In this document: in pieces, positions 22,453-46,684 of the stretch
Numbering within the stretch: the first letter of the stretch is position 1
How the letters are laid out: every line of letters begins with the position of its first letter
Source of the DNA: a bacterium
GTDB lineage: Bacteria; Hinthialibacterota; Hinthialibacteria; Hinthialibacterales; Hinthialibacteraceae
NCBI GenBank assembly: GCA_963663405.2
Contig: CAXXSM010000073.1
Span: 53,388 to 117,387 of the forward strand
Length of the DNA stretch: 64,000 bases
Reading direction: 5' to 3'
The notes under the pieces: generated by a model
What the model saw: only the letters and a program-made list of their open reading frames with translations
Told to the model about the DNA's origin: nothing
Databases searched by the model: none
Position numbers and translations under genes: made by a program

Positions 22453-22992
22453 TCAATTTATCCTCCCCTCTATCATGGAGCCGCTGAACTCAATAACCTT
22501 GATTCCCTTGGGAATATACGGCGCATGGAGGCCTTGCAGTCTTTCGTGAAGGATCGCCTCCATCCGTTCCCATTGTTCTCCCGTTTCTAGGTCATGGTCA
22601 TAACCAAGCAAGTGAATCAATCCGTGAAACAGCAGTTCGCCGATCTCATCATCCAGGGAATGCCCCAGGTGTTCGGCTTGGCGCTGGGCAGTTTCCACGG
22701 AAAGAACGATATCTCCCAACGCATGATGTTGGCCGATCGCTTCTCCCTCTCGCTGCGAAAAGGAGAGTACATCGGTTGGTTTGTCCAATCCACGGTACTC
22801 ATGATTAAGGCGCCGGATGTGTTCGTCGTTTACGATAGTAACGCTGATTTCCGCATCGTCCTCTCCAGCGGCTTGGAGTAGGGATTCAAGAAAGCGTTTC
22901 TGTCTTTCTCGATCGAACTGGATTAAGATATCATTCACCTCAATTAAAACTTTCATTCCATCCTCATTTTGAATATTCATACTTGATTTCAT
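22453..22992 (-). CDS. ybeY: rRNA maturation endoribonuclease YbeY
   Basis: LNHEYRGLDKPTDVLSF, GDIVLS and HGLIHLLGYDH motifs. Confidence 0.92.
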   Translation of the reverse strand: MKSSMNIQNEDGMKVLIEVNDILIQFDRERQKRFLESLLQAAGEDDAEISVTIVNDEHIRRLNHEYRGLDKPTDVLSFSQREGEAIGQHHALGDIVLSVETAQRQAEHLGHSLDDEIGELLFHGLIHLLGYDHDLETGEQWERMEAILHERLQGLHAPYIPKGIKVIEFSGSMIEGRIN

Positions 22993-40260: not shown

Positions 40261-40992
40261 TCAGGAGATCCGTTTCAGAAAAAACTTAAGCAGAGCATAT
40301 AGCAAAGCAATATGATACACTGTTCCAACAACTAAAAACAGCCAGAAATTCGAACCATTATCAGACAGAATCCAAAACGCTTTCATGGGCCAATAAATAG
40401 GAATTACGCCGGTTAAAAGCTGCCATCCAAATGGCAGGAAATAGGCCGGGACAGGTAGAAACAAAAGCCCGCCGTATCCTTTAATCAAAGCGAATCCCTG
40501 CACTTTGTTTGTGCATAGAACATTCATCAGCAGTGTCGTTATCGGCGCGCCCAAGGAGACGACGATTGCAATGGCAAACAGTGGCAGGATCGCTACCTGA
40601 ATCAAATTTGTCACTTCGACCATTACAACCGTCATGATAATACTTAGGATGAAAGGGATGGCGCCTCGATAGAACAAGTAAAAAGGGAAGGGCAATGGCG
40701 TTACCCGCAGCGCCGTCAATGTTTGATCGTCCCGTTCGTCCAGCAGCAGAAATCCAATCACGCTCCCATACAAAAGTGAAGGTATCATAACGCACATATA
40801 GCTGACAATCAAATGGTAGTAGAGGGTTAAATCCACGTACGGTTCCAACCATACTGTCAATGGAGGAATTGCCCATCGCAACACCAGCGCGTAAAAGACC
40901 GGCAGCCAGATCATCCATATTAGGAGCGAGTCGCGTTGAACTAACTTGTAATCGTTTACACATAATGTATAAAACCAGGCTCCTGCTTTCAT
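40261..40992 (-). CDS. ABC-2 exporter permease
   Basis: GFLLLDERDDQTLTALRVTP motif; 6 TM segments. Confidence 0.85.
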   Translation of the reverse strand: MKAGAWFYTLCVNDYKLVQRDSLLIWMIWLPVFYALVLRWAIPPLTVWLEPYVDLTLYYHLIVSYMCVMIPSLLYGSVIGFLLLDERDDQTLTALRVTPLPFPFYLFYRGAIPFILSIIMTVVMVEVTNLIQVAILPLFAIAIVVSLGAPITTLLMNVLCTNKVQGFALIKGYGGLLFLPVPAYFLPFGWQLLTGVIPIYWPMKAFWILSDNGSNFWLFLVVGTVYHIALLYALLKFFLKRIS

Positions 40993-41699
40993 CGTAGATC
41001 CCCCTCCTTGCGAATGATAAATCGATGGAAGCAGGTGTAGGCCCACCACCAGCCGATCCCGCTCCAGAGGATGGAATAACTAATCGCGTAAAGCCATATC
41101 CATGTGGCGGCCGGTTCGAAAGCGCCGCGTATCAGCAATAGCGGCGCTTGGGTGGGGATCAGGTAGAAGAGCCAATGGTTTAGGATGCCAAGATAATCAA
41201 TAATGGGCAATTGCAGCGCCATCGTTACGAGAACCGACGGCATTAGAAAATCCGTAATGGAGTTGTAGCGGGTTACGAGGATAAATCCAGCGAACGAGTA
41301 ATGGATTGACATAAACATGATACCAGTCAACAAAGAGAGCCAGTTGAAATCGAATCCATACGTGATCAGAAGAACGGATATATTTTCCAGCATGACCAAG
41401 AGTGTCATGGTCACGAGTTTTGAAATTAGATATTCCGAAGGGCGGAGTGGAGTCACGACGATTCCTTCGAGTGTGCCTTCCCGCTTCTCCAACAGCGCCA
41501 TGCCCGCGAAGAGATAGAATGTGCCGCTGCCCATTGTCGCCAGTAGGAGAGGGGGAATCGCATACGCCACCCATTCACGGGCGAAGAACAACCGGAGCCA
41601 AAACGCCGTGAAGGCCGCGATCACCAGCGCGGCGAAATAAAAGCCATTGCGGTACTGGAGCGTGATATCCAGCCGGAAAGTCGCGAGAAGCCGGTTCAT
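40989..41699 (-). CDS. ABC-2 exporter permease
   Basis: LLEKREGTLEGIVVTPLRPSEYLISK motif. Confidence 0.85.
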   Translation of the reverse strand: MNRLLATFRLDITLQYRNGFYFAALVIAAFTAFWLRLFFAREWVAYAIPPLLLATMGSGTFYLFAGMALLEKREGTLEGIVVTPLRPSEYLISKLVTMTLLVMLENISVLLITYGFDFNWLSLLTGIMFMSIHYSFAGFILVTRYNSITDFLMPSVLVTMALQLPIIDYLGILNHWLFYLIPTQAPLLLIRGAFEPAATWIWLYAISYSILWSGIGWWWAYTCFHRFIIRKEGDLR

Positions 41700-42550
41700 T
41701 GGAGGCTCCTTCCCGTAACTTGGATGAAGATATTTTCGAGTGTGGTTTCCTGGGTGTGAATCGTTTCGATTTCCCGTTCGCGCAAGAGTTTGAGAAACGT
41801 CTCGTTCTCACCCAAGCTGGTTAATGGGAATTCCTGGCTTTCGGTTTGATGATCCAAACGATATTCAACGCGGATCGAGCGTTTCCCATATTGGAGTTTC
41901 AAATTGCGGGGAGAATCAATCAAGCGAATTTTCCCATCCACAAGAAACGCGACCCGGTCACAGAGCTCGTCCGCCGTGATCATTTCGTGGGTGGTCAGAA
42001 AAATTGTGACGCCTTCGTTTTTCTTTTGTTTGATGATCTCTTTAATGATTCGAGAGTTGACTGGATCGAGACCGGCGGTCGGTTCATCCAAGAAAAGCAA
42101 CTCTGGATTGTGCAGAATCGAGCGGGCGAAGTTCAGCCGGATTTTCATCCCTTTCGAGAATTGGGAAACGCGGAGATCGATATCGGCTCCTAAATTCACT
42201 TGTTCCAGCAATTGTCGTGGATCGGCTGTTTTCCCATTGTAGAGGGATTGGAAGTAGAGTAGATTTTCGAGCGCAGTCAATTTTAAATAGTGGTTCGGGA
42301 ATTCGAAACAGACACCGATTTTTTCATAATAATCGGACGGCCAGGTCTTGAGATCTTTGTCGAGTACTGTGATGGTTCCCAGGTACTCTTTCAACAGCCC
42401 AATCAGTATTTTCTGGGTCGTGCTTTTTCCAGCACCACTTGGACCGAGGAATCCAAGAATCTCTCCTTTGGCGATCTCGAAATCAAGGTCTTTTAACGTA
42501 GGCTGATTGCATCCGGGATAATGAAAACGCAATTGATTGACCTGTATCAC
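41696..42550 (-). CDS. ABC exporter ATP-binding protein
   Basis: GPSGAGKST, FSKGM and LDEPTAGLDP motifs. Confidence 0.9.
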   Translation of the reverse strand: MIQVNQLRFHYPGCNQPTLKDLDFEIAKGEILGFLGPSGAGKSTTQKILIGLLKEYLGTITVLDKDLKTWPSDYYEKIGVCFEFPNHYLKLTALENLLYFQSLYNGKTADPRQLLEQVNLGADIDLRVSQFSKGMKIRLNFARSILHNPELLFLDEPTAGLDPVNSRIIKEIIKQKKNEGVTIFLTTHEMITADELCDRVAFLVDGKIRLIDSPRNLKLQYGKRSIRVEYRLDHQTESQEFPLTSLGENETFLKLLREREIETIHTQETTLENIFIQVTGRSLQ

Positions 42551-42608: not shown

Positions 42609-43796
42609 CTATTCCAATTGCTTATACAGGATTTGCGCGAATTTGACTATCTCTGGATTCGAGTGGTTCCGCATTTGAAGAATGAGATCCAGGGAATCGA
42701 TCACCGGATCAAGGTTATCGGCGGCGGTGATAAAATCATCCGTGTGGAAAGGACCGGCTTTGTAAACCTGCACTTTGCGGGCGCCTTTGCCGGATGCGGT
42801 CAGGTCTTCCGATTTCGCGTAGTGCAAACTCCATTCAATCTCGTTATCAATGAATAGTGTCACGTATCGTTCCCGGCGCTTGCCGCTTTCATCCGCGCCT
42901 AGAACGGTTCCAATCCAATCGCCTTTCAGTTTTTTAGTCAATGCATCGAAATAAAGTCGATCCAAAGAAGGCAGATGAATTCGTTTCCGGACGGAAGGGG
43001 GAATGAGTTCCCCGGAAATTTCATCGACTGTCTTATACACGTGTTTGGCGTCGAGACCGGGGATTTCAACAATGGAGAATGTATCATATTCCGTTTGTTC
43101 CGCATGGAATAGTCTCCAATAATCCTCCCCTTCCTGGACGATGGAAAGGACAAAATGGTTTTTCTCGAATTGAGAATTAGGGAGAACACTGCCGGGAAGA
43201 TTTTTCGCCGCTTCATTCCAATTGTGGGCGGTGAATGAAAACATAAACGCAAGATCATGTTCTTGAAAACCGAGGATTCGTAATTCATCCAGCAAACCAG
43301 CGAGAGAATACGTTCCACTTTTATCAACTTCGGGTTCGGAGAGAAGACCGGTTTCATCGGTGGTCACGCAGGTGTAGAGCGAATAAGATCCATCTACCTG
43401 TTTCTCAACAGAATACAGAGCGTCCCATTCGCTATCCGCTTGATCTCCGGGAGCGCCAAGCCAAGTTCCAGGAAGTTTTTGTTTGAGAGTTTCTTGAACA
43501 AGGTCCTCTTTGTGAGGCAGACCGAGAATCCGGCGTTCTTCTTCGGTGATTTCGGGCGTATAACCGGCGCTCTCGTAAAGTTGGTGTAACGTTTGATAAA
43601 CAGAGACGGCGGACAGTGGGTGCGAGTGGAACACGTGTGGCGCTCCGTTTTGTTCTTGAATCGAATGAACGATCCAGCGCGCCGCATCTTGTTTTTCAAT
43701 GCTGACCGCGAGTCCTGAACCTTCCGGGTGCTGATCGTTTAAAAATAAGCCTGGCAGTTGGCCGATGGCCTCCCGCCAATTGATTGCCGCATTCAT
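42609..43796 (-). CDS. Hypothetical protein with an internal tandem duplication
   Basis: Long ORF; two halves starting NWREAIGQLPG and NWNEAAKNLPG; start at ATG 43796 is inferred. Confidence 0.65.
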   Translation of the reverse strand: MNAAINWREAIGQLPGLFLNDQHPEGSGLAVSIEKQDAARWIVHSIQEQNGAPHVFHSHPLSAVSVYQTLHQLYESAGYTPEITEEERRILGLPHKEDLVQETLKQKLPGTWLGAPGDQADSEWDALYSVEKQVDGSYSLYTCVTTDETGLLSEPEVDKSGTYSLAGLLDELRILGFQEHDLAFMFSFTAHNWNEAAKNLPGSVLPNSQFEKNHFVLSIVQEGEDYWRLFHAEQTEYDTFSIVEIPGLDAKHVYKTVDEISGELIPPSVRKRIHLPSLDRLYFDALTKKLKGDWIGTVLGADESGKRRERYVTLFIDNEIEWSLHYAKSEDLTASGKGARKVQVYKAGPFHTDDFITAADNLDPVIDSLDLILQMRNHSNPEIVKFAQILYKQLE

Positions 43797-43912
43797 TTGT
43801 TTATACAGTATCCTTTTTGTGCCGCAAAATCGGTTTGGTTGTTCTGCATTGTATCTCTTAAAAAGGGAGGAAACAACGAAGATATTTCTTTCTACTTTTT
43901 CTGTTTTTATTC

Positions 43913-43940
43913 TTGACAAATACAAGATTCATATTATTGT
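43913..43940 (+). promoter_or_regulatory. Sigma70-type promoter
   Basis: TTGACA-16 bp-TATTGT, preceded by T-rich sequence. Confidence 0.55.
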
Positions 43941-43971
43941 GTAAGTAACGCAGAAAGGAGGTGGTCCACTT

Positions 43972-44037
43972 ATGATAGATGATTATTATGAATGTAAAGA
44001 CACAAGCGTAGGTGGCTGCGGAGGTGAGGAGGGTTAG
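43972..44037 (+). CDS. 21-aa small ORF behind an extended Shine-Dalgarno sequence
   Basis: MIDDYYECKDTSVGGCGGEEG*, preceded by AGAAAGGAGGTGGTCCA. Confidence 0.45.
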   Translation: MIDDYYECKDTSVGGCGGEEG

Positions 44038-44144
44038 AATTTCCTGAATCGAAAGCGGATCAGAATTCCGTATTCGTTTGGGGAATGAAAGGGTAGAGTT
44101 CCATCAAAACTCTCCTGACTCTCTAGTACAAACAGTTAACCGGG

Positions 44145-44180
44145 AAGAAGGCGGTCAAGATTTGGTCGCCTTCTTTTTCT
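44145..44180 (+). terminator. Intrinsic terminator
   Basis: AAGAAGGCGGTCAA-gat-TTGGTCGCCTTCTT stem running into a T-rich tract. Confidence 0.75.
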
Positions 44181-44290
44181 TCTGAGCGGCATTTCTCTTT
44201 CTCTTCCCATATATCGTTCTCTCCAATTCGTTTATGATTAATCATGTGTTTTCCATCCACTCGAATTCTATATACAGATAAGGAGTCATC

Positions 44291-46684
44291 ATGCGCCTTC
44301 ATTCGTTTTATTCAATTCCTGTTCTCGTGTTACTAAGTCTGGTTTGCGGTTTAGTAGCCGCCGCCGATGATGCGGTTTTATTTGATGCGGAGGGGATCGC
44401 GGACGCGCGGATCAATGGATTTTCGGTCGAAAAAATTGGAACCTATACAGTTTGGATCTGGTCGCTTGCCAAGGAAGAAGTGATCGTTGAAATCAATGAG
44501 AAGCGCTTTGTCTCTAAACTGAAAAGCGATGCAGGGGATGGCGTTTATTCATGGAAGCGGCTTGGTTCTGTGGATTTAAACGACTCTGAAACCGCATCGC
44601 TGCGTCTTTATAGCGATGATCTTTCCAAAACACTGAAACCAAAACAGGTGGGATATCTCGCGTTGAATCTACATGCGGATTGGGATCCAGCCGCCTATTT
44701 TGCATTGACTAAAATATTTAACGATTCGGCGCGATCGGTTTCAGACAAACGTCTTGGTATCCTGCGTTCGAATCGGGATTATTATCCCTTTCCAGATTAT
44801 CAAACCAAGGATGAGTGGCTTCAACGAAAACGGGTATTGAAGACTCATCTCCTTAACAGTCTCGGTTTGTATCCTCTGCCGGAAAAAACGCCGTTGAAAG
44901 CGAAAATCTTTGATGTAACCGAACGGGAAGACTACACGGTCGCGAAAGCGTATTTCGAGAGTTATCCCGGTTTTTATGTAACAGGCAATCTATACAGGCC
45001 CAAAGGGAAATCCGGCCCATTTCCAGGCGTGGTATCTCCGCATGGACATTGGAGCAACGGGCGTCTTGAAAATGGGGAGACAGGATCGGTTCCGGGCCGC
45101 GCGATCAATCTCGCCCGGCAGGGCTGCGTTGTGTTTACTTACGACATGGTTGGATACGTTGACAGCAAGCAGATCAACCATCAATTCGGCGGCGAGCGGG
45201 AATGGCTTTGGGGGATCTCGCTGCATGGGCTGCAGCTGTGGAATGGCATCCGCGCAGTGGATTTTCTGCTGACATTGGATGACGTCGATCCAGACCGCAT
45301 CGCCTGCACAGGCGCGTCGGGTGGAGGAACGCAGACGTTCAGCCTTATGGCGGTGGATGAACGGGTGCGCGTGGCCGCGCCGGTGAATATGATCTCCGCG
45401 CATTTTCAGGGTGGCTGTCTCTGCGAGAATGGACCGAATCTACGGTTGGATGCGAACAATGTGGAATTCGGCGCGATGATGGCTCCCCGGCCCTTGCTAA
45501 TGGTTTCCGCTTCAGGGGATTGGACGAATGAAACGCCCCGTGTCGAGTATCCCGCTATCCGGTCGATTTATAAATTATTTGACGCGCCCGATCATGTTTA
45601 TTCCGTACAGATCGACGCGCCGCATAATTACAACAAAGACAGCCGGGAAGCCGTGTACGCTTGGTTTGGAAAATGGCTGCTGGGGGAAGAAAATACAGAA
45701 AAATTGAAAGAAAAAGAATTTACAGTCGAAGAGGATGAAGCCCTGCGCGTCTTCCCCGGTGATCTCCCTGAAGGCGCGGTAGACGCGGAGGAACTTACAG
45801 CGTATTTGAAAAAAATGTCCGAAGCGCAGTTGCAAGAGATATATCCAAATGACGAATCCGCGCTGCTGAGACTGCGCCGGATCGCAGGAACCGCCTTGCG
45901 GCATACCCTCAGCGCCCAGCTCCCGAAACGGAATGAACTTGTCATCGATCGATTGGTGGCGGAAAAGATTCCAGGGGCGTTTGTGGAACGAATGGTAATC
46001 GGCCGTGTGGGGAAAGGCGATCGAATTCCTGGGATTCTGGTGATTCCAAACGATCGAAAAGGATCGTCGTCCGGAACCGTTTTAGTCCATGAAGAAGGCA
46101 AAGCCGCGTTGACGGACTTGGCTTCAGGAAAACCGGGTGGGATTTTGCAGTGTCTCTTGGATGAAGGGCATGCTGTATTCATGCCGGATGTTTTTCTGAC
46201 CGGCGAATTCCATTCTCCATTCGAAAAAGCGATCCGGGATAAAGAGACCGCGCATTTTTTGACTTACAACCAAACGGATACCGCTTTGCGTACGCAGGAT
46301 ATCCTTACATCAATCGCCTTTCTGAATTCCCGCTACGAAGCGGAGACGGTGAACCTTGTGGGAGTGGGAGACGCAGGATTGTGGTGTTTATTAGCGGCTC
46401 CATTGGCCGATTCACTGCATAGTGTTGTTGTGGACGCGGCGGGATTCGATGGCAGTGACGACGCGTATATGAACCGGCTCTACATCCCCGGATTGCGGCG
46501 TGCGGGAGACCTGCGCGCGGCGCAGGCGCTGCTCGCTCCTACGCCATTGGTGATTTATAACACCGGCGGTGTCTTTGACACTGCGTGGGCGCGGAAAGCA
46601 TATGAAACCGCTGGTGTAGAAGAACGCCTTGAAATTCTTGAAGGGCCTGTTGGATTGGATGTTTTAACGAGATCGTTGCGGTGA
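44291..46684 (+). CDS. Secreted alpha/beta-hydrolase (acetylxylan esterase-like), two hydrolase-like halves
   Basis: Signal peptide; PGVVSPHGH, TGASGGGTQT nucleophile elbow, APRPLL and HNY motifs. Confidence 0.8.
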   Translation: MRLHSFYSIPVLVLLSLVCGLVAAADDAVLFDAEGIADARINGFSVEKIGTYTVWIWSLAKEEVIVEINEKRFVSKLKSDAGDGVYSWKRLGSVDLNDSETASLRLYSDDLSKTLKPKQVGYLALNLHADWDPAAYFALTKIFNDSARSVSDKRLGILRSNRDYYPFPDYQTKDEWLQRKRVLKTHLLNSLGLYPLPEKTPLKAKIFDVTEREDYTVAKAYFESYPGFYVTGNLYRPKGKSGPFPGVVSPHGHWSNGRLENGETGSVPGRAINLARQGCVVFTYDMVGYVDSKQINHQFGGEREWLWGISLHGLQLWNGIRAVDFLLTLDDVDPDRIACTGASGGGTQTFSLMAVDERVRVAAPVNMISAHFQGGCLCENGPNLRLDANNVEFGAMMAPRPLLMVSASGDWTNETPRVEYPAIRSIYKLFDAPDHVYSVQIDAPHNYNKDSREAVYAWFGKWLLGEENTEKLKEKEFTVEEDEALRVFPGDLPEGAVDAEELTAYLKKMSEAQLQEIYPNDESALLRLRRIAGTALRHTLSAQLPKRNELVIDRLVAEKIPGAFVERMVIGRVGKGDRIPGILVIPNDRKGSSSGTVLVHEEGKAALTDLASGKPGGILQCLLDEGHAVFMPDVFLTGEFHSPFEKAIRDKETAHFLTYNQTDTALRTQDILTSIAFLNSRYEAETVNLVGVGDAGLWCLLAAPLADSLHSVVVDAAGFDGSDDAYMNRLYIPGLRRAGDLRAAQALLAPTPLVIYNTGGVFDTAWARKAYETAGVEERLEILEGPVGLDVLTRSLR

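What the first reader, a model, noticed from the sequence alone, without database searches (positions are those of the whole stretch)
43913..44180. Stand-alone mini transcript with a 17-nt complement to the 16S rRNA 3' tail, a 21-codon ORF, a hairpin and a terminator
Seen: a promoter (TTGACA-16-TATTGT), then AGAAAGGAGGTGGTCCA at 43952-43968, then ATG 3 nt later opening MIDDYYECKDTSVGGCGGEEG*. A second SD-like run (GGAGGTGAGGAGG) lies just before the stop, followed by a hairpin (GAATT..CTGA...TCAGAATTC, ~44038-44069) and a strong terminator before the next gene. Established: the canonical 16S 3' end is UGGAUCACCUCCUUUCU, so this 17-mer pairs at every position (one G-U), far longer than an ordinary SD, and reaches the base of helix 45. 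Inference: the ~230-nt RNA could trap or tune 30S subunits, act in 16S 3'-end maturation, or express an acidic two-Cys peptide. No annotated feature explains it. The host's own 16S is not in the window.
Basis: partly seen in the sequence, partly recalled or inferred. Interest (0 to 1): 0.8.

Follow-up and report, generated by a model that had tools for sequence, protein, structure and literature searches.

The report
Small RNA with built-in ribosome-binding mini-gene
This is a real, separately transcribed small RNA gene, a distant relative of a known but unexplained mycobacterial small RNA, which combines an unusually strong ribosome-binding site and a tiny reading frame with a conserved RNA fold that a translating ribosome would have to open.

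Summary
Promoter, 17-nt complement to the host's own 16S 3' tail, a 21-codon ORF, hairpins and a terminator lie at 43913-44182. The 17-mer occurs nowhere else in the 8.4-Mb genome except in the 16S gene itself.

The element is not an orphan. One copy per genome is found in most genomes of the window's small phylum. Elements with the same layout occur in Acidobacteriota, Actinomycetota, Eisenbacteria and Binatia.

Three Actinomycetota copies match Rfam RF02471 (Ms_IGR-5) above its cut-off. This is an experimentally seen mycobacterial/Streptomyces sRNA of unknown function. The window copy does not reach that model, but a model built here without its phylum links them.

Conservation is mainly at the RNA level. 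The motif GGUGRCUG at the end of the ORF pairs with a conserved tail just before the terminator, with covariation. The same nucleotides are read in two different frames in different lineages, yet an ORF is almost always kept open up to that helix.

Best reading: a ribosome-loaded small RNA whose short ORF is translated to remodel the RNA. The peptide is probably not the product. The output of the switch is unknown. I rate it a new, distant variant of a known kind.

The parts
43913..43918 (+). -35 box TTGACA
   Evidence: A TTGAC/TTGAW box stands at the same place in 26 of 26 distinct relatives (alignment).
43935..43940 (+). -10 box TATTGT
   Evidence: 16-nt spacer, 10 of 12 matches.
43947..43951 (+). 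Predicted 5' end (A at 43947/43948) and a 5-nt leader AACGC
   Evidence: Inferred from its distance to the -10 box. Models R1 and RF02471 both begin with A-C 6 nt before GAAAGG. The M. smegmatis homologue starts at an A (passage read).
43952..43968 (+). 17-nt complement to the 16S 3' tail (extended Shine-Dalgarno), AGAAAGGAGGTGGTCCA
   Evidence: GAAAGGAGGTGGTC is kept in 27 of 28 loci of the phylum.
43972..44037 (+). 21-codon ORF including the TAG stop (44035-44037)
   Evidence: Among 26 distinct relatives' ORFs, with 10 different lengths, frame 0 is open in 26 of 26; frame +1 has a stop in 21 of 26 and frame +2 in 26 of 26.
44010..44018 (+). AGGTGGCTG, 5' strand of the long-range helix Ha
   Evidence: Covariation across phyla. 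In the window copy only about 3+3 pairs are possible (alignment; not in the MFE).
44020..44035 (+).
   Evidence: Paired with 44108-44124 in the MFE and centroid folds. Helix cells are 85-94% paired in 20 sequences.
44039..44102 (+). Variable apical hairpins (44039-44086 and 44091-44102)
   Evidence: Length and sequence are not conserved among relatives.
44108..44124 (+). CU-rich 3' block (..CTCTCCTGACTCTC..), 3' strand of helix X'
44125..44131 (+). Junction (AGTACAA here; CAATCCA/AATCC in most relatives)
   Evidence: It aligns with the AAUCC junction of other phyla in L004 and L011.
44132..44143 (+). Tail ACAGTTAACCGG, 3' strand of Ha
44144..44182 (+). Intrinsic terminator (stem 44144-44158 / 44162-44176, then a T run)
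   Evidence: 23 of 25 relatives passed a crude hairpin-plus-U-run test. The stems differ in sequence between relatives.

Best explanation
The locus is a single-copy gene for a roughly 230-nt independently transcribed structured RNA. It is a distant, previously unrecognised relative of the Ms_IGR-5 sRNA family (Rfam RF02471).

Shown:
- Its first 22 nt are little more than a 17-nt perfect landing pad for the 16S 3' tail.
- A start codon follows 3 nt later and opens a short ORF.
- The last 8-9 codons and the stop codon form one strand of a long conserved helix (Ha plus X'). The other strand is the CU-rich block and tail that lie just before the terminator.

Inferred:
- A 30S subunit loads on the 5' end as soon as it is transcribed.
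- The ribosome that translates the ORF must melt this helix. That frees about 35 nt of CU-rich, anti-SD-like 3' sequence.
- This stretch can re-pair with the RNA's own SD, which is explicit in Acidobacteriota and Actinomycetota through an internal GACCACC. Alternatively it becomes available to other partners.
- The act of translation, not the peptide, is what selection keeps.
- The RNA would then be a translation-gated conformational switch or reporter of ribosome availability. Its downstream target is unknown.
For: (1) Real and conserved.
- A blastn-type search found the element in 18 of 19 same-family, 6 of 6 same-order and 3 of 9 same-class genomes.
- A strict pattern hits 25 of 35 genomes of the phylum, always once, with 0 control hits.
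- Promoter, ORF, 3' block and terminator align.

(2) Same architecture in other phyla.
- The 14-mer is present in 108 of 401 sampled Actinomycetota genomes, against 21 genomes for the reversed control by my count.

(3) Link to RF02471.
- L165, L164 and L162 score 168.8, 97.9 and 80.6 bits (cut-off 45). Seven further loci score 26-40 bits.
- Model R1 was built from 28 sequences that include these three and none from the window's phylum. It hits 99 of 100 loci.
- In the window it gives one hit, 43947-43990, E 8.7e-6.
- It aligns the 5' block, Ha, junction and tail in register in relatives L004 (38.1 bits) and L011 (36.5 bits).
- Genome-wide, its only hit in the own genome is this element.

(4) RNA-level constraint.
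- Ha: 88.9% of cells are paired and 4 of 9 pairs change on both sides.
- Whole 12-pair structure (Ha plus the base of Hb): covariation score 0.264, against 0.186 +/- 0.006 in shuffles (0 of 500 as high) and at most 0.097 when slid.
- The motif is read as E-V-A in 82 sequences and as G-G-[GD]-C in 5. Both frames occur inside Eisenbacteria.

(5) The ORF is kept open.
- 87 of 99 aligned sequences have an ORF that ends at the aligned stop. Ten more are off by one column.
- In the window's phylum 26 of 26 distinct ORFs are open, with 10 lengths.

(6) Helix Ha plus X' in the window's phylum: 91.5% of cells paired, against at most 60% when slid. X' is present in the MFE and centroid folds while the SD and AUG stay unpaired.

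(7) Expression.
- RNA-library contigs of 4 runs cover only 43952-44199.
- Passages read: IGR-5 is a validated, uncharacterised, NAD-capped sRNA in M. smegmatis. It is RNA-seq-validated in S. lividans. MS_IGR-5 homologues carry ribosome footprints in M. abscessus and M. smegmatis.
Against: - The window copy does not match RF02471 even at E <= 10. None of the 35 genomes of its phylum has a hit at the element.
- R1 aligns only the 5' block of the window copy itself.
- Covariation inside the window's phylum is weak: score 0.156 against 0.138, 6 of 500 shuffles reach it, and one slid register scores higher at 0.177.
- Ha is only about 3+3 bp in the window copy and is absent from its MFE fold.
- The window's phylum lacks the internal GACCACC anti-SD (0 of 32). 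The self-closing half of the switch is therefore not evident there.
- Its possible substitute, the 3' arm of the terminator, ranks 4th of 412 terminators, and an ordinary terminator scores better.
- Ten of 87 ORFs have only CTG or ATT as a start.
- All expression evidence for the window copy comes from assembled contigs. They cannot show ends, strand or level.
- No target or phenotype is known. The remodelling step is inference.
Confidence: 0.55

Rival explanations
1. It is simply a very highly translated gene for a small Cys/Gly-rich acidic peptide, for example a metal- or redox-active peptide or a RiPP precursor. The RNA structure only tunes its expression or stability.
For: - The ORF is intact in 28 of 28 loci of the phylum and in 87 of 99 aligned sequences elsewhere.
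- The peptide end S-[AV]-G-[GD]-C-G-G is kept within family and order.
- E-V-A is kept across Actinomycetota and Acidobacteriota.
- The SD is the strongest in the genome.
- Homologues carry ribosome footprints (passage read).
Against: - The same conserved nucleotides are read in two frames, including within Eisenbacteria (..ISGGGCS* against ..IAEVAVR*).
- Synonymous positions of four Gly codons are fixed, as expected for a paired RNA strand.
- Cys is absent from many family members.
- No conserved neighbour, and so no maturase or partner gene: at most 30 of about 146 loci, and 11 of 50 Actinomycetota loci, share any neighbour.
- There is no Pfam match.
- Some members have only CTG or ATT as a start.
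Confidence: 0.15
2. The RNA acts through its 17-nt antisense to the 16S tail. It would work as a 30S sponge or titrator, as a factor in 16S 3'-end maturation, or (with an internal copy of the tail) as a decoy for proteins that bind the 16S 3' end.
For: - The predicted duplex of -30.4 kcal/mol is stronger than any of 4128 gene upstream regions.
- The block sits 5 nt from the predicted 5' end.
- Many Acidobacteriota (68 of 72) and Actinomycetota (20 of 49) copies carry an internal 16S-tail-like GACCACC that pairs with it.
Against: - There is one gene copy, and no evidence that the RNA is abundant enough to titrate ribosomes.
- A start codon at proper spacing and an open frame are conserved. A pure sponge would not need them.
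- The position that makes G-U with 16S is G in every copy seen and never the perfectly pairing A. For the pattern-derived loci this is by construction, because the search pattern fixed that base. It fits intramolecular G-C pairing better than maximal 16S pairing.
- The window's phylum lacks the internal tail copy (0 of 32).
Confidence: 0.12
3. It is a cis-acting leader, a leader-peptide attenuator, that controls read-through into the downstream gene (here the 797-aa AXE1-like esterase at 44291).
For: - It has a short ORF followed by a terminator on the same strand as the next gene.
- The 5' block is complementary to the 3' arm of the terminator in about 14 of 27 relatives (my count of the rows).
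- The own terminator ranks 4th of 412 in the genome for this complementarity. This could in principle compete with terminator formation.
Against: - Downstream genes differ between genomes. No neighbour cluster is general. NUDIX and flavoprotein neighbours occur only within Acidobacteriota.
- In some loci the neighbour is convergent.
- The ORF has no conserved regulatory codon run.
- The terminator is a 15-bp GC-rich local hairpin.
- RNA contigs end at the terminator (a weak hint).
- An unrelated terminator is even more complementary to the 5' block.
Confidence: 0.04

Closest known systems
Rfam RF02471, Ms_IGR-5 (IGR-5 / ncMSMEG15794c of Mycobacterium smegmatis; SLIV_16488 of Streptomyces lividans)
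   Same: - 5' end A-C-N3-4 followed by G(A/G)AAGGAGGUGGUCC.
- A start codon a few nt later and a 12-14-codon ORF that ends just after GAGGUGGCUG.
- The stop codon sits at the base of a hairpin.
- A single-stranded AAUCC-like junction, then a tail CAG..CACC, then a terminator.
- It is a stand-alone gene. Its function is unknown (passages read).
   Different: - The window copy scores nothing with the Rfam model.
- It lies in another phylum.
- Its ORF reads the shared motif in the other frame and is 8 codons longer.
- It has an extra helix X' (GGAGG-UGA-GGAGRGY with a CU-rich block).
- It has no internal GACCACC.
- Rfam's own consensus structure does not mark helix Ha.
Leader-peptide transcription attenuators (trpL / hisL type; recalled, not tested against a model)
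   Same: A short ORF whose translation determines which downstream RNA pairing can form, with an intrinsic terminator behind it.
   Different: - No run of regulatory codons.
- No conserved downstream operon.
- No demonstrated antiterminator.
- The RNA appears to be the end product.
STAB-SD / 5' mRNA stabilisers of Bacillus (for example the cryIIIA leader; recalled from memory, not read here)
   Same: An extended SD-like GAAAGGAGG close to the 5' end. Bound 30S could protect the RNA from 5'-end-dependent decay.
   Different: STAB-SD elements are not followed by a start codon. Here a start codon and ORF follow at normal spacing, and the block is part of a conserved multi-helix RNA.
Dual-function sRNAs with a small ORF (SgrS/SgrT, RNAIII/hld, SR1/SR1P; recalled)
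   Same: A small independently transcribed RNA that is both structured and carries a translated sORF.
   Different: Those families are narrow in range, and the peptide and base-pairing functions are separable. Here the ORF overlaps the conserved helix, and the frame, and hence the peptide, is not conserved.
Type I toxin mRNAs with 5'-3' fold-back that hides the SD (hok type; recalled)
   Same: In Acidobacteriota and Actinomycetota copies a distal internal anti-SD can close onto the 5' SD.
   Different: The peptide is short, hydrophilic and not toxin-like. No antisense RNA gene was seen. The window's phylum has no such internal anti-SD.

Membership tests
Rfam RF02471 Ms_IGR-5 | Score of at least 45 bits (gathering cut-off) with the Rfam covariance model | tested here: not met
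   The window shows no RF02471 match at gathering or at E <= 10. In 35 genomes of the phylum, 0 are over the cut-off and no weak hit lies at the element. Actinomycetota homologues L165, L164 and L162 do pass.
Rfam RF02471 Ms_IGR-5 | 5' block ..GRAAGGAGGUGGUCC a few nt from the 5' end | tested here: met
   Window 43952-43968 against the Rfam consensus printed. R1 hits this block at E 8.7e-6.
Rfam RF02471 Ms_IGR-5 | GAGGUGGCUG near the ORF end paired with a ..CAG..CACC tail; AAUCC-like junction; terminator | tested here: inconclusive
   AGGTGGCTG (44010-44018) and the tail ACAGTTAACCGG (44132-44143) are present, but only about 6 pairs are possible and the junction reads AGTACAA. Relatives L004 and L011 align in register with R1. 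Within the phylum 95% of Ha cells are paired without double changes.
Rfam RF02471 Ms_IGR-5 | Independent small transcript | tested here: inconclusive
   Promoter and terminator are predicted. RNA-library contigs are confined to 43952-44199, but contigs cannot show ends or strand.
Leader-peptide attenuator | Conserved downstream operon controlled in cis | tested here: not met
   No general neighbour.
Leader-peptide attenuator | Run of codons for the sensed amino acid | tested here: not met
   Peptides share no conserved codon run. Cys is frequent but absent in many.
6S RNA | Match to RF00013; one per genome | tested here: not met
   The genome's 6S gene is at C94:4085-4261, 54.8 bits. It is not here.
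tmRNA / tRNA-like | tRNA-like domain and tag ORF | tested here: not met
   ARAGORN found 0 genes in 43000-45000. There is no Rfam hit.
RiPP precursor | Conserved adjacent maturase or transporter genes | tested here: not met
   Neighbours in the window are an ORF without Pfam match, an ABC transporter and an AXE1-like esterase. Neighbours are not conserved across loci.

The most novel reading that the evidence does not exclude
An ancient riboregulator shared by at least five bacterial phyla that uses a single round of translation as its input. A 5'-terminal near-perfect 16S landing pad captures a ribosome. The ribosome's passage through a 12-29-codon frame unzips a conserved long-range helix and flips the RNA into a second state. 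In that state an internal 16S-tail mimic re-closes the SD and/or a CU-rich tail is exposed. The cell would thereby read out free-ribosome or translation capacity through an sRNA. This would be a class of 'translation-sensing' RNA switch that has not been described.
Probability: 0.25. Interest if true: 0.85.

Novelty: new variant of a known kind. Interest (0 to 1): 0.6.

Why it matters
Ms_IGR-5 has been listed since 2013 (year recalled; the original paper was not held) as an actinobacterial sRNA. The passages I could read call it uncharacterised or assign it no function.

This window extends the family in four ways.
- The same gene plan reaches well beyond Actinomycetota: a small uncultured phylum, Acidobacteriota, Eisenbacteria and Binatia, with one copy per genome.
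- It points to what is conserved. That is a 5'-terminal extended Shine-Dalgarno, an ORF that is kept open whatever frame it is read in, and a long-range helix that covers the ORF's end.
- This gives a concrete hypothesis, translation-gated RNA remodelling, that can be tested in easy model organisms such as M. smegmatis and Streptomyces.
- It also flags a gap in RNA annotation. The Rfam model misses most of the family.

Tried and rejected
- Direct Rfam match of the window: none at gathering or at E <= 10. Twelve loci from several phyla at gathering: none at the element. The family surfaced only with the permissive scan.
- 6S RNA: rejected, because the genome has its own 6S gene.
- tmRNA or tRNA-like: rejected.
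- 'SD-poor organism with one special SD': rejected. 43% of 4104 first-ATG long ORFs have a 4-mer SD core upstream, against 10% in controls.
- Conserved neighbour or operon: none.
- Internal GACCACC anti-SD in the window's phylum: absent, 0 of 32.
- Terminator 3' arm as the anti-SD of this phylum: only weak support (rank 4 of 412). The best-scoring terminator in the genome is an ordinary one behind a gene.
- Pairing of CCAC in the 5' block with GUGG of Ha: seen in the MFE, but not kept in relatives on inspection.
- Peptide family search: no Pfam match. NCBIfam was never run, because one search failed on my wrong coordinates and I did not repeat it.
- Literature by sequence strings and keywords found nothing relevant. 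Searches for IGR-5, RF02471 and the MSMEG gene names found 7 and 1 papers. The passages read in five of them describe no function, no SD/sORF architecture and no member outside Actinobacteria. The original description (Li et al. 2013, recalled) is not held. Supplements are closed, so Ribo-seq and sRNA tables of PMC4974804 and PMC10454040 were not seen.
- Read laying: the stretches without cover (43800-43951 and 44218-44350) are no evidence of absence. The small-share runs X4-X10 say nothing about habitat.
- Complex prediction, structure prediction and the protein searches were not used, because the peptide is too short and not the likely product.
Full report
OBSERVATION

- TTGACA (43913-43918), a 16-nt spacer and TATTGT (43935-43940). 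The consensus scan also found this promoter, 10 of 12.
- AGAAAGGAGGTGGTCCA at 43952-43968.
- ATG at 43972, opening a 21-codon ORF that ends with TAG at 44035-44037.
- GGAGGTGAGGAGG just before the stop.
- Hairpins after the stop and a terminator. Folding gives a 15-bp stem at 44144-44176 followed by a T run.

The host's 16S gene lies on another contig. Its 3' end reads ...GGCUGGAUCACCUCCUUUCU, so the 17-mer pairs at every position with one G-U.
- The 17-mer, with A or G at the wobble position, occurs twice in 8.44 Mb: here and in the 16S gene.
- It is the longest 16S-tail pairing in the genome apart from the 16S gene itself.
- Its predicted duplex energy of -30.4 kcal/mol is unmatched among 4128 upstream regions of long ORFs (mean -9.1, sd 3.3, best -23.5).
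- The organism uses SD sequences at an ordinary rate (43% against 10% in controls). The site is extreme, but not because the genome lacks SDs.

CONSERVATION IN THE WINDOW'S LINEAGE

A DNA search of 61 genomes found the element in 18 of 19 same-family, 6 of 6 same-order and 3 of 9 same-class genomes. The one family member without it is 86% complete.

A strict pattern hits 25 of the 35 genomes the collection holds for this phylum. It always hits once, and the control pattern gives 0 hits.

The alignment shows several conserved blocks:
- the -35 box;
- the block A-(A/G)-CGC-(A/G)-GAAAGGAGGTGGTC;
- an ATG 5-6 nt later;
- a block AGCGCAGGTGGCTGCGGAGGTGAGGAGRGYTAA at the ORF end;
- variable hairpins;
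- a CU-rich block GCTCTCCTGACTCTCCAATCCAAACAGCTTACCGG;
- terminators whose stems differ in sequence.

All 28 loci keep an 18-29-codon ORF. Among 26 distinct ORFs with 10 different lengths, frame 0 is always open. Frame +1 has stops in 21 and frame +2 in 26.

THE SAME PLAN IN OTHER PHYLA

Most are Acidobacteriota/Terriglobales and Acidimicrobiales. Others are Eisenbacteria, Binatia, Vicinamibacteria, Solirubrobacterales and a few records labelled only 'bacterium'.

In each of five such genomes the 14-mer occurs exactly once. In an even sample of 401 Actinomycetota genomes, 108 carry it, or 97 of 390 without the flagged unpublished genomes. It is nearly always single. The reversed control pattern hits 21 genomes by my count.

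All these loci show the same order of parts:
- a promoter;
- a 5-6-nt leader and the SD block;
- a start codon (ATG, GTG or TTG, sometimes only CTG);
- a 10-22-codon ORF;
- GAGGUGGCUG and a stop codon at the base of a hairpin;
- an AAUCC-like junction;
- a tail CAG-n-CACC;
- a terminator.

Neighbouring genes are not conserved.

IDENTITY

A permissive Rfam scan of twelve of these loci matched RF02471, 'Actinobacteria sRNA Ms_IGR-5'.
- L165 scores 168.8 bits, L164 97.9 and L162 80.6, against a cut-off of 45.
- Seven further Actinomycetota loci score 26-40 bits.
- The Eisenbacteria and Rubrimentiphilum loci score nothing.

The window itself and the 35 genomes of its phylum do not match the Rfam model.

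To test the link I built model R1 from 28 sequences (alignment A2). These were Actinomycetota, including the three Rfam-positive loci, plus Acidobacteriota, Eisenbacteria and Binatia. None came from the window's phylum.
- R1 finds 99 of 100 loci.
- In the window it gives a single hit at 43947-43990 (28.3 bits, E 8.7e-6). Only the 5' block is aligned.
- In relatives L004 and L011 it aligns the 5' block, Ha, junction and tail in register (38.1 and 36.5 bits).
- Genome-wide it hits only this element in the own genome. It also hits one of 26 genomes from other phyla and 13 of 121 sampled Acidobacteriota (strict filters, so an undercount).

The chain runs from the window, to its order-level relatives, to R1, to RF02471. 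I take this as homology, with the caveat that the window copy alone would not prove it.

WHAT THE LITERATURE SAYS (passages only)

- IGR-5 lies between MSMEG_5794 and MSMEG_5795. It is called a validated but uncharacterised sRNA, is NAD-capped and starts at an A (bioRxiv 10.1101/2021.12.14.472595).
- It is re-detected as ncMSMEG15794c (PMC10454040).
- A Streptomyces lividans copy is RNA-seq-validated (PMC8079986).
- A S. avermitilis sRNA unit matches it (PMC8780764).
- MS_IGR-5 homologues show ribosome-protected reads in M. abscessus and M. smegmatis (PMC4974804).
- None of the passages read describes a function, the SD/sORF/helix architecture or members outside Actinobacteria. The original 2013 paper and all supplements could not be read.

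RNA OR PEPTIDE?

The motif at the ORF end pairs with the tail (helix Ha), and the partners change together. The pairs below were found by duplex search:
- CUGGC with GCCAG;
- CCGAG with CUCGG;
- CUGCC with GGCAG;
- CUGUC with GACAG;
- CCGG with CCGG;
- CUGAG with CUCAG.

The model-fitted alignment of 99 sequences gives these figures for the whole 12-pair structure, Ha plus the base of Hb:
- 88.1% of cells are paired;
- 6 of the 12 pairs change on both sides;
- the covariation score is 0.264, against 0.186 +/- 0.006 in shuffles (0 of 500 as high) and at most 0.097 in slid registers.

For Ha alone, 88.9% of cells are paired and 4 of its 9 pairs change on both sides. This alignment leans towards the structure it was fitted to.

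The same nucleotides are translated as E-V-A in 82 sequences and as G-G-[G/D]-C in 5. Both frames occur within Eisenbacteria. The window's phylum uses the second frame with an 8-codon extension. Yet an ORF that ends at the aligned stop is present in 87 of 99. Ten more are merely misaligned by one column and two lack the stop column.

What is conserved is therefore an RNA helix plus the fact of an open frame running into it. The peptide is not what is conserved.

STRUCTURE OF THE WINDOW'S OWN RNA

The 230-nt RNA folds at -75.2 kcal/mol with z = -4.16. In the centroid fold:
- the leader, SD block and AUG are unpaired;
- GGAGG-UGA-GGAGGGU (44020-44035) pairs with the CU-rich block (44108-44124), forming helix X';
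- the terminator is formed.

In 20 sequences of the phylum, Ha plus X' are 91.5% paired, against at most 60% in slid registers. Covariation there is weak (0.156 against 0.138; 6 of 500 shuffles; one slid register scores higher). By eye X' does co-vary in the more distant members (alignment rows).

Ha itself is weak in the window copy.

THE INVARIANT G

The block reads GGUGGUC, never the perfectly 16S-matching GGUGAUC.
- For the pattern-derived loci this is by construction, because the patterns fixed that base. It was not fixed in the 28 loci of the window's phylum, which came from the blastn-type search; there 28 of 28 have G.
- In Acidobacteriota (68 of 72) and Actinomycetota (20 of 49) an internal GACCACC can pair with it. 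Some Actinomycetota also carry UCCUUUC further on (seen by eye). Together these form a split copy of the 16S tail.
- In those lineages the SD can be closed intramolecularly. The internal CCACC segments can pair either with the SD or with the ORF end.
- The window's phylum has no GACCACC (0 of 32).
- There the best partner of the block is often the 3' arm of the terminator. That is only marginally unusual: rank 4 of 412 terminators, and an ordinary terminator scores better.

MECHANISM

Shown:
- a 5'-terminal, extremely strong ribosome landing site;
- a conserved start and an open frame;
- the end of the frame and the stop codon embedded in a conserved long-range helix;
- a terminator;
- single-copy, stand-alone genes.

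Established knowledge (recalled): a ribosome unwinds mRNA about a dozen nucleotides ahead of its P site, and a terminating ribosome covers the last codons.

Inference:
- Any ribosome that completes this ORF must have opened Ha/X'. That frees the 3' block, junction and tail.
- Because the SD is the first thing transcribed, loading can precede folding. The presence or absence of a pioneering ribosome could then decide the RNA's final fold.
- What the freed tail does is unknown. It may close the SD, pair with other RNAs' SDs, or bind a protein.

I put about 0.9 on 'real independent RNA gene', 0.8 on homology with Ms_IGR-5, 0.7 on ribosome engagement and 0.4 on the remodelling mechanism.

EXPRESSION OF THE WINDOW COPY

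Contigs from four RNA-labelled libraries of four studies cover only 43952-44199.
- A 185-nt contig spans 43959-44143 with 5 differences.
- Three others span 43968-44137, 43982-44144 and 44002-44152.
- Nothing lies on the flanks.

One of the four runs is marked 'probably DNA'. Contigs cannot give ends, strand or level. This is a weak hint of a discrete transcript.

VERDICT

The finding is real and well observed, but it is not an orphan.
- It is a divergent member of a superfamily whose actinobacterial branch is already in Rfam, without a known function.
- The new elements are the range across at least five phyla, the SD/sORF/long-range-helix architecture with frame plasticity, and the variant form in this phylum.
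- I rate it a new variant of a known kind, interest 0.6.

Noticed in passing
L059:60-421 (-) and L059:1646-1717 (+): In one Terriglobales MAG the element (about 1290-1431) lies roughly 870 nt from a tmRNA gene (159.6 bits) and next to a tRNA. In L160 a tRNA-Sec lies about 800 nt away. This is probably coincidence.
   Followed up: no
G053:C4:168645-168763 (-): One of 26 genomes sampled from other phyla (2.8 Mb, 100% complete) has a strong R1 hit (47.3 bits, E 1.1e-8). Its phylum is not named, so the family's range is wider than the named records show.
   Followed up: no
G000 contig C125, about 22690-22725 (+): An ordinary gene-end terminator has a 3' arm that is even more complementary to the 17-mer (-28.2 kcal/mol) than the element's own terminator. 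It shows that 16S-tail-like terminator arms arise by chance.
   Followed up: yes
window 42609-43925 (-): The ORF listed upstream on the minus strand (438 aa from a TTG) has no Pfam match. As listed it would overlap the element's promoter. An ATG at about 43796 on the minus strand looks like the more likely start (read).
   Followed up: partly
window 40989-42550 (-) and 44291-46684 (+): The neighbours are an ABC transporter pair (ATPase plus FLQE3-type permease) and a 797-aa secreted-looking protein with an AXE1 acetyl-xylan-esterase-like domain. Neither is conserved next to the element in other genomes.
   Followed up: partly
ORF middle parts in L033-L180 and the window's relatives: The early, variable part of the ORF is AU-rich. 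It is full of NGU/AGU/UGU/UUA/AGA-type codons and recurring GUAGU strings, even in GC-rich Actinomycetota and Acidobacteriota. Either an unstructured landing zone or deliberately rare codons could explain this; neither was tested.
   Followed up: no
Actinomycetota loci, e.g. L088, L156, L162-L166: GGAC(N) inside the ORF co-varies with (N)GUCC in a hairpin loop downstream of the tail: GGACU with AGUCC, GGACG with CGUCC, GGGACC with GGUCCC. This was seen by eye in the listing and suggests a loop-ORF pseudoknot. No equivalent was seen in the window's phylum.
   Followed up: partly
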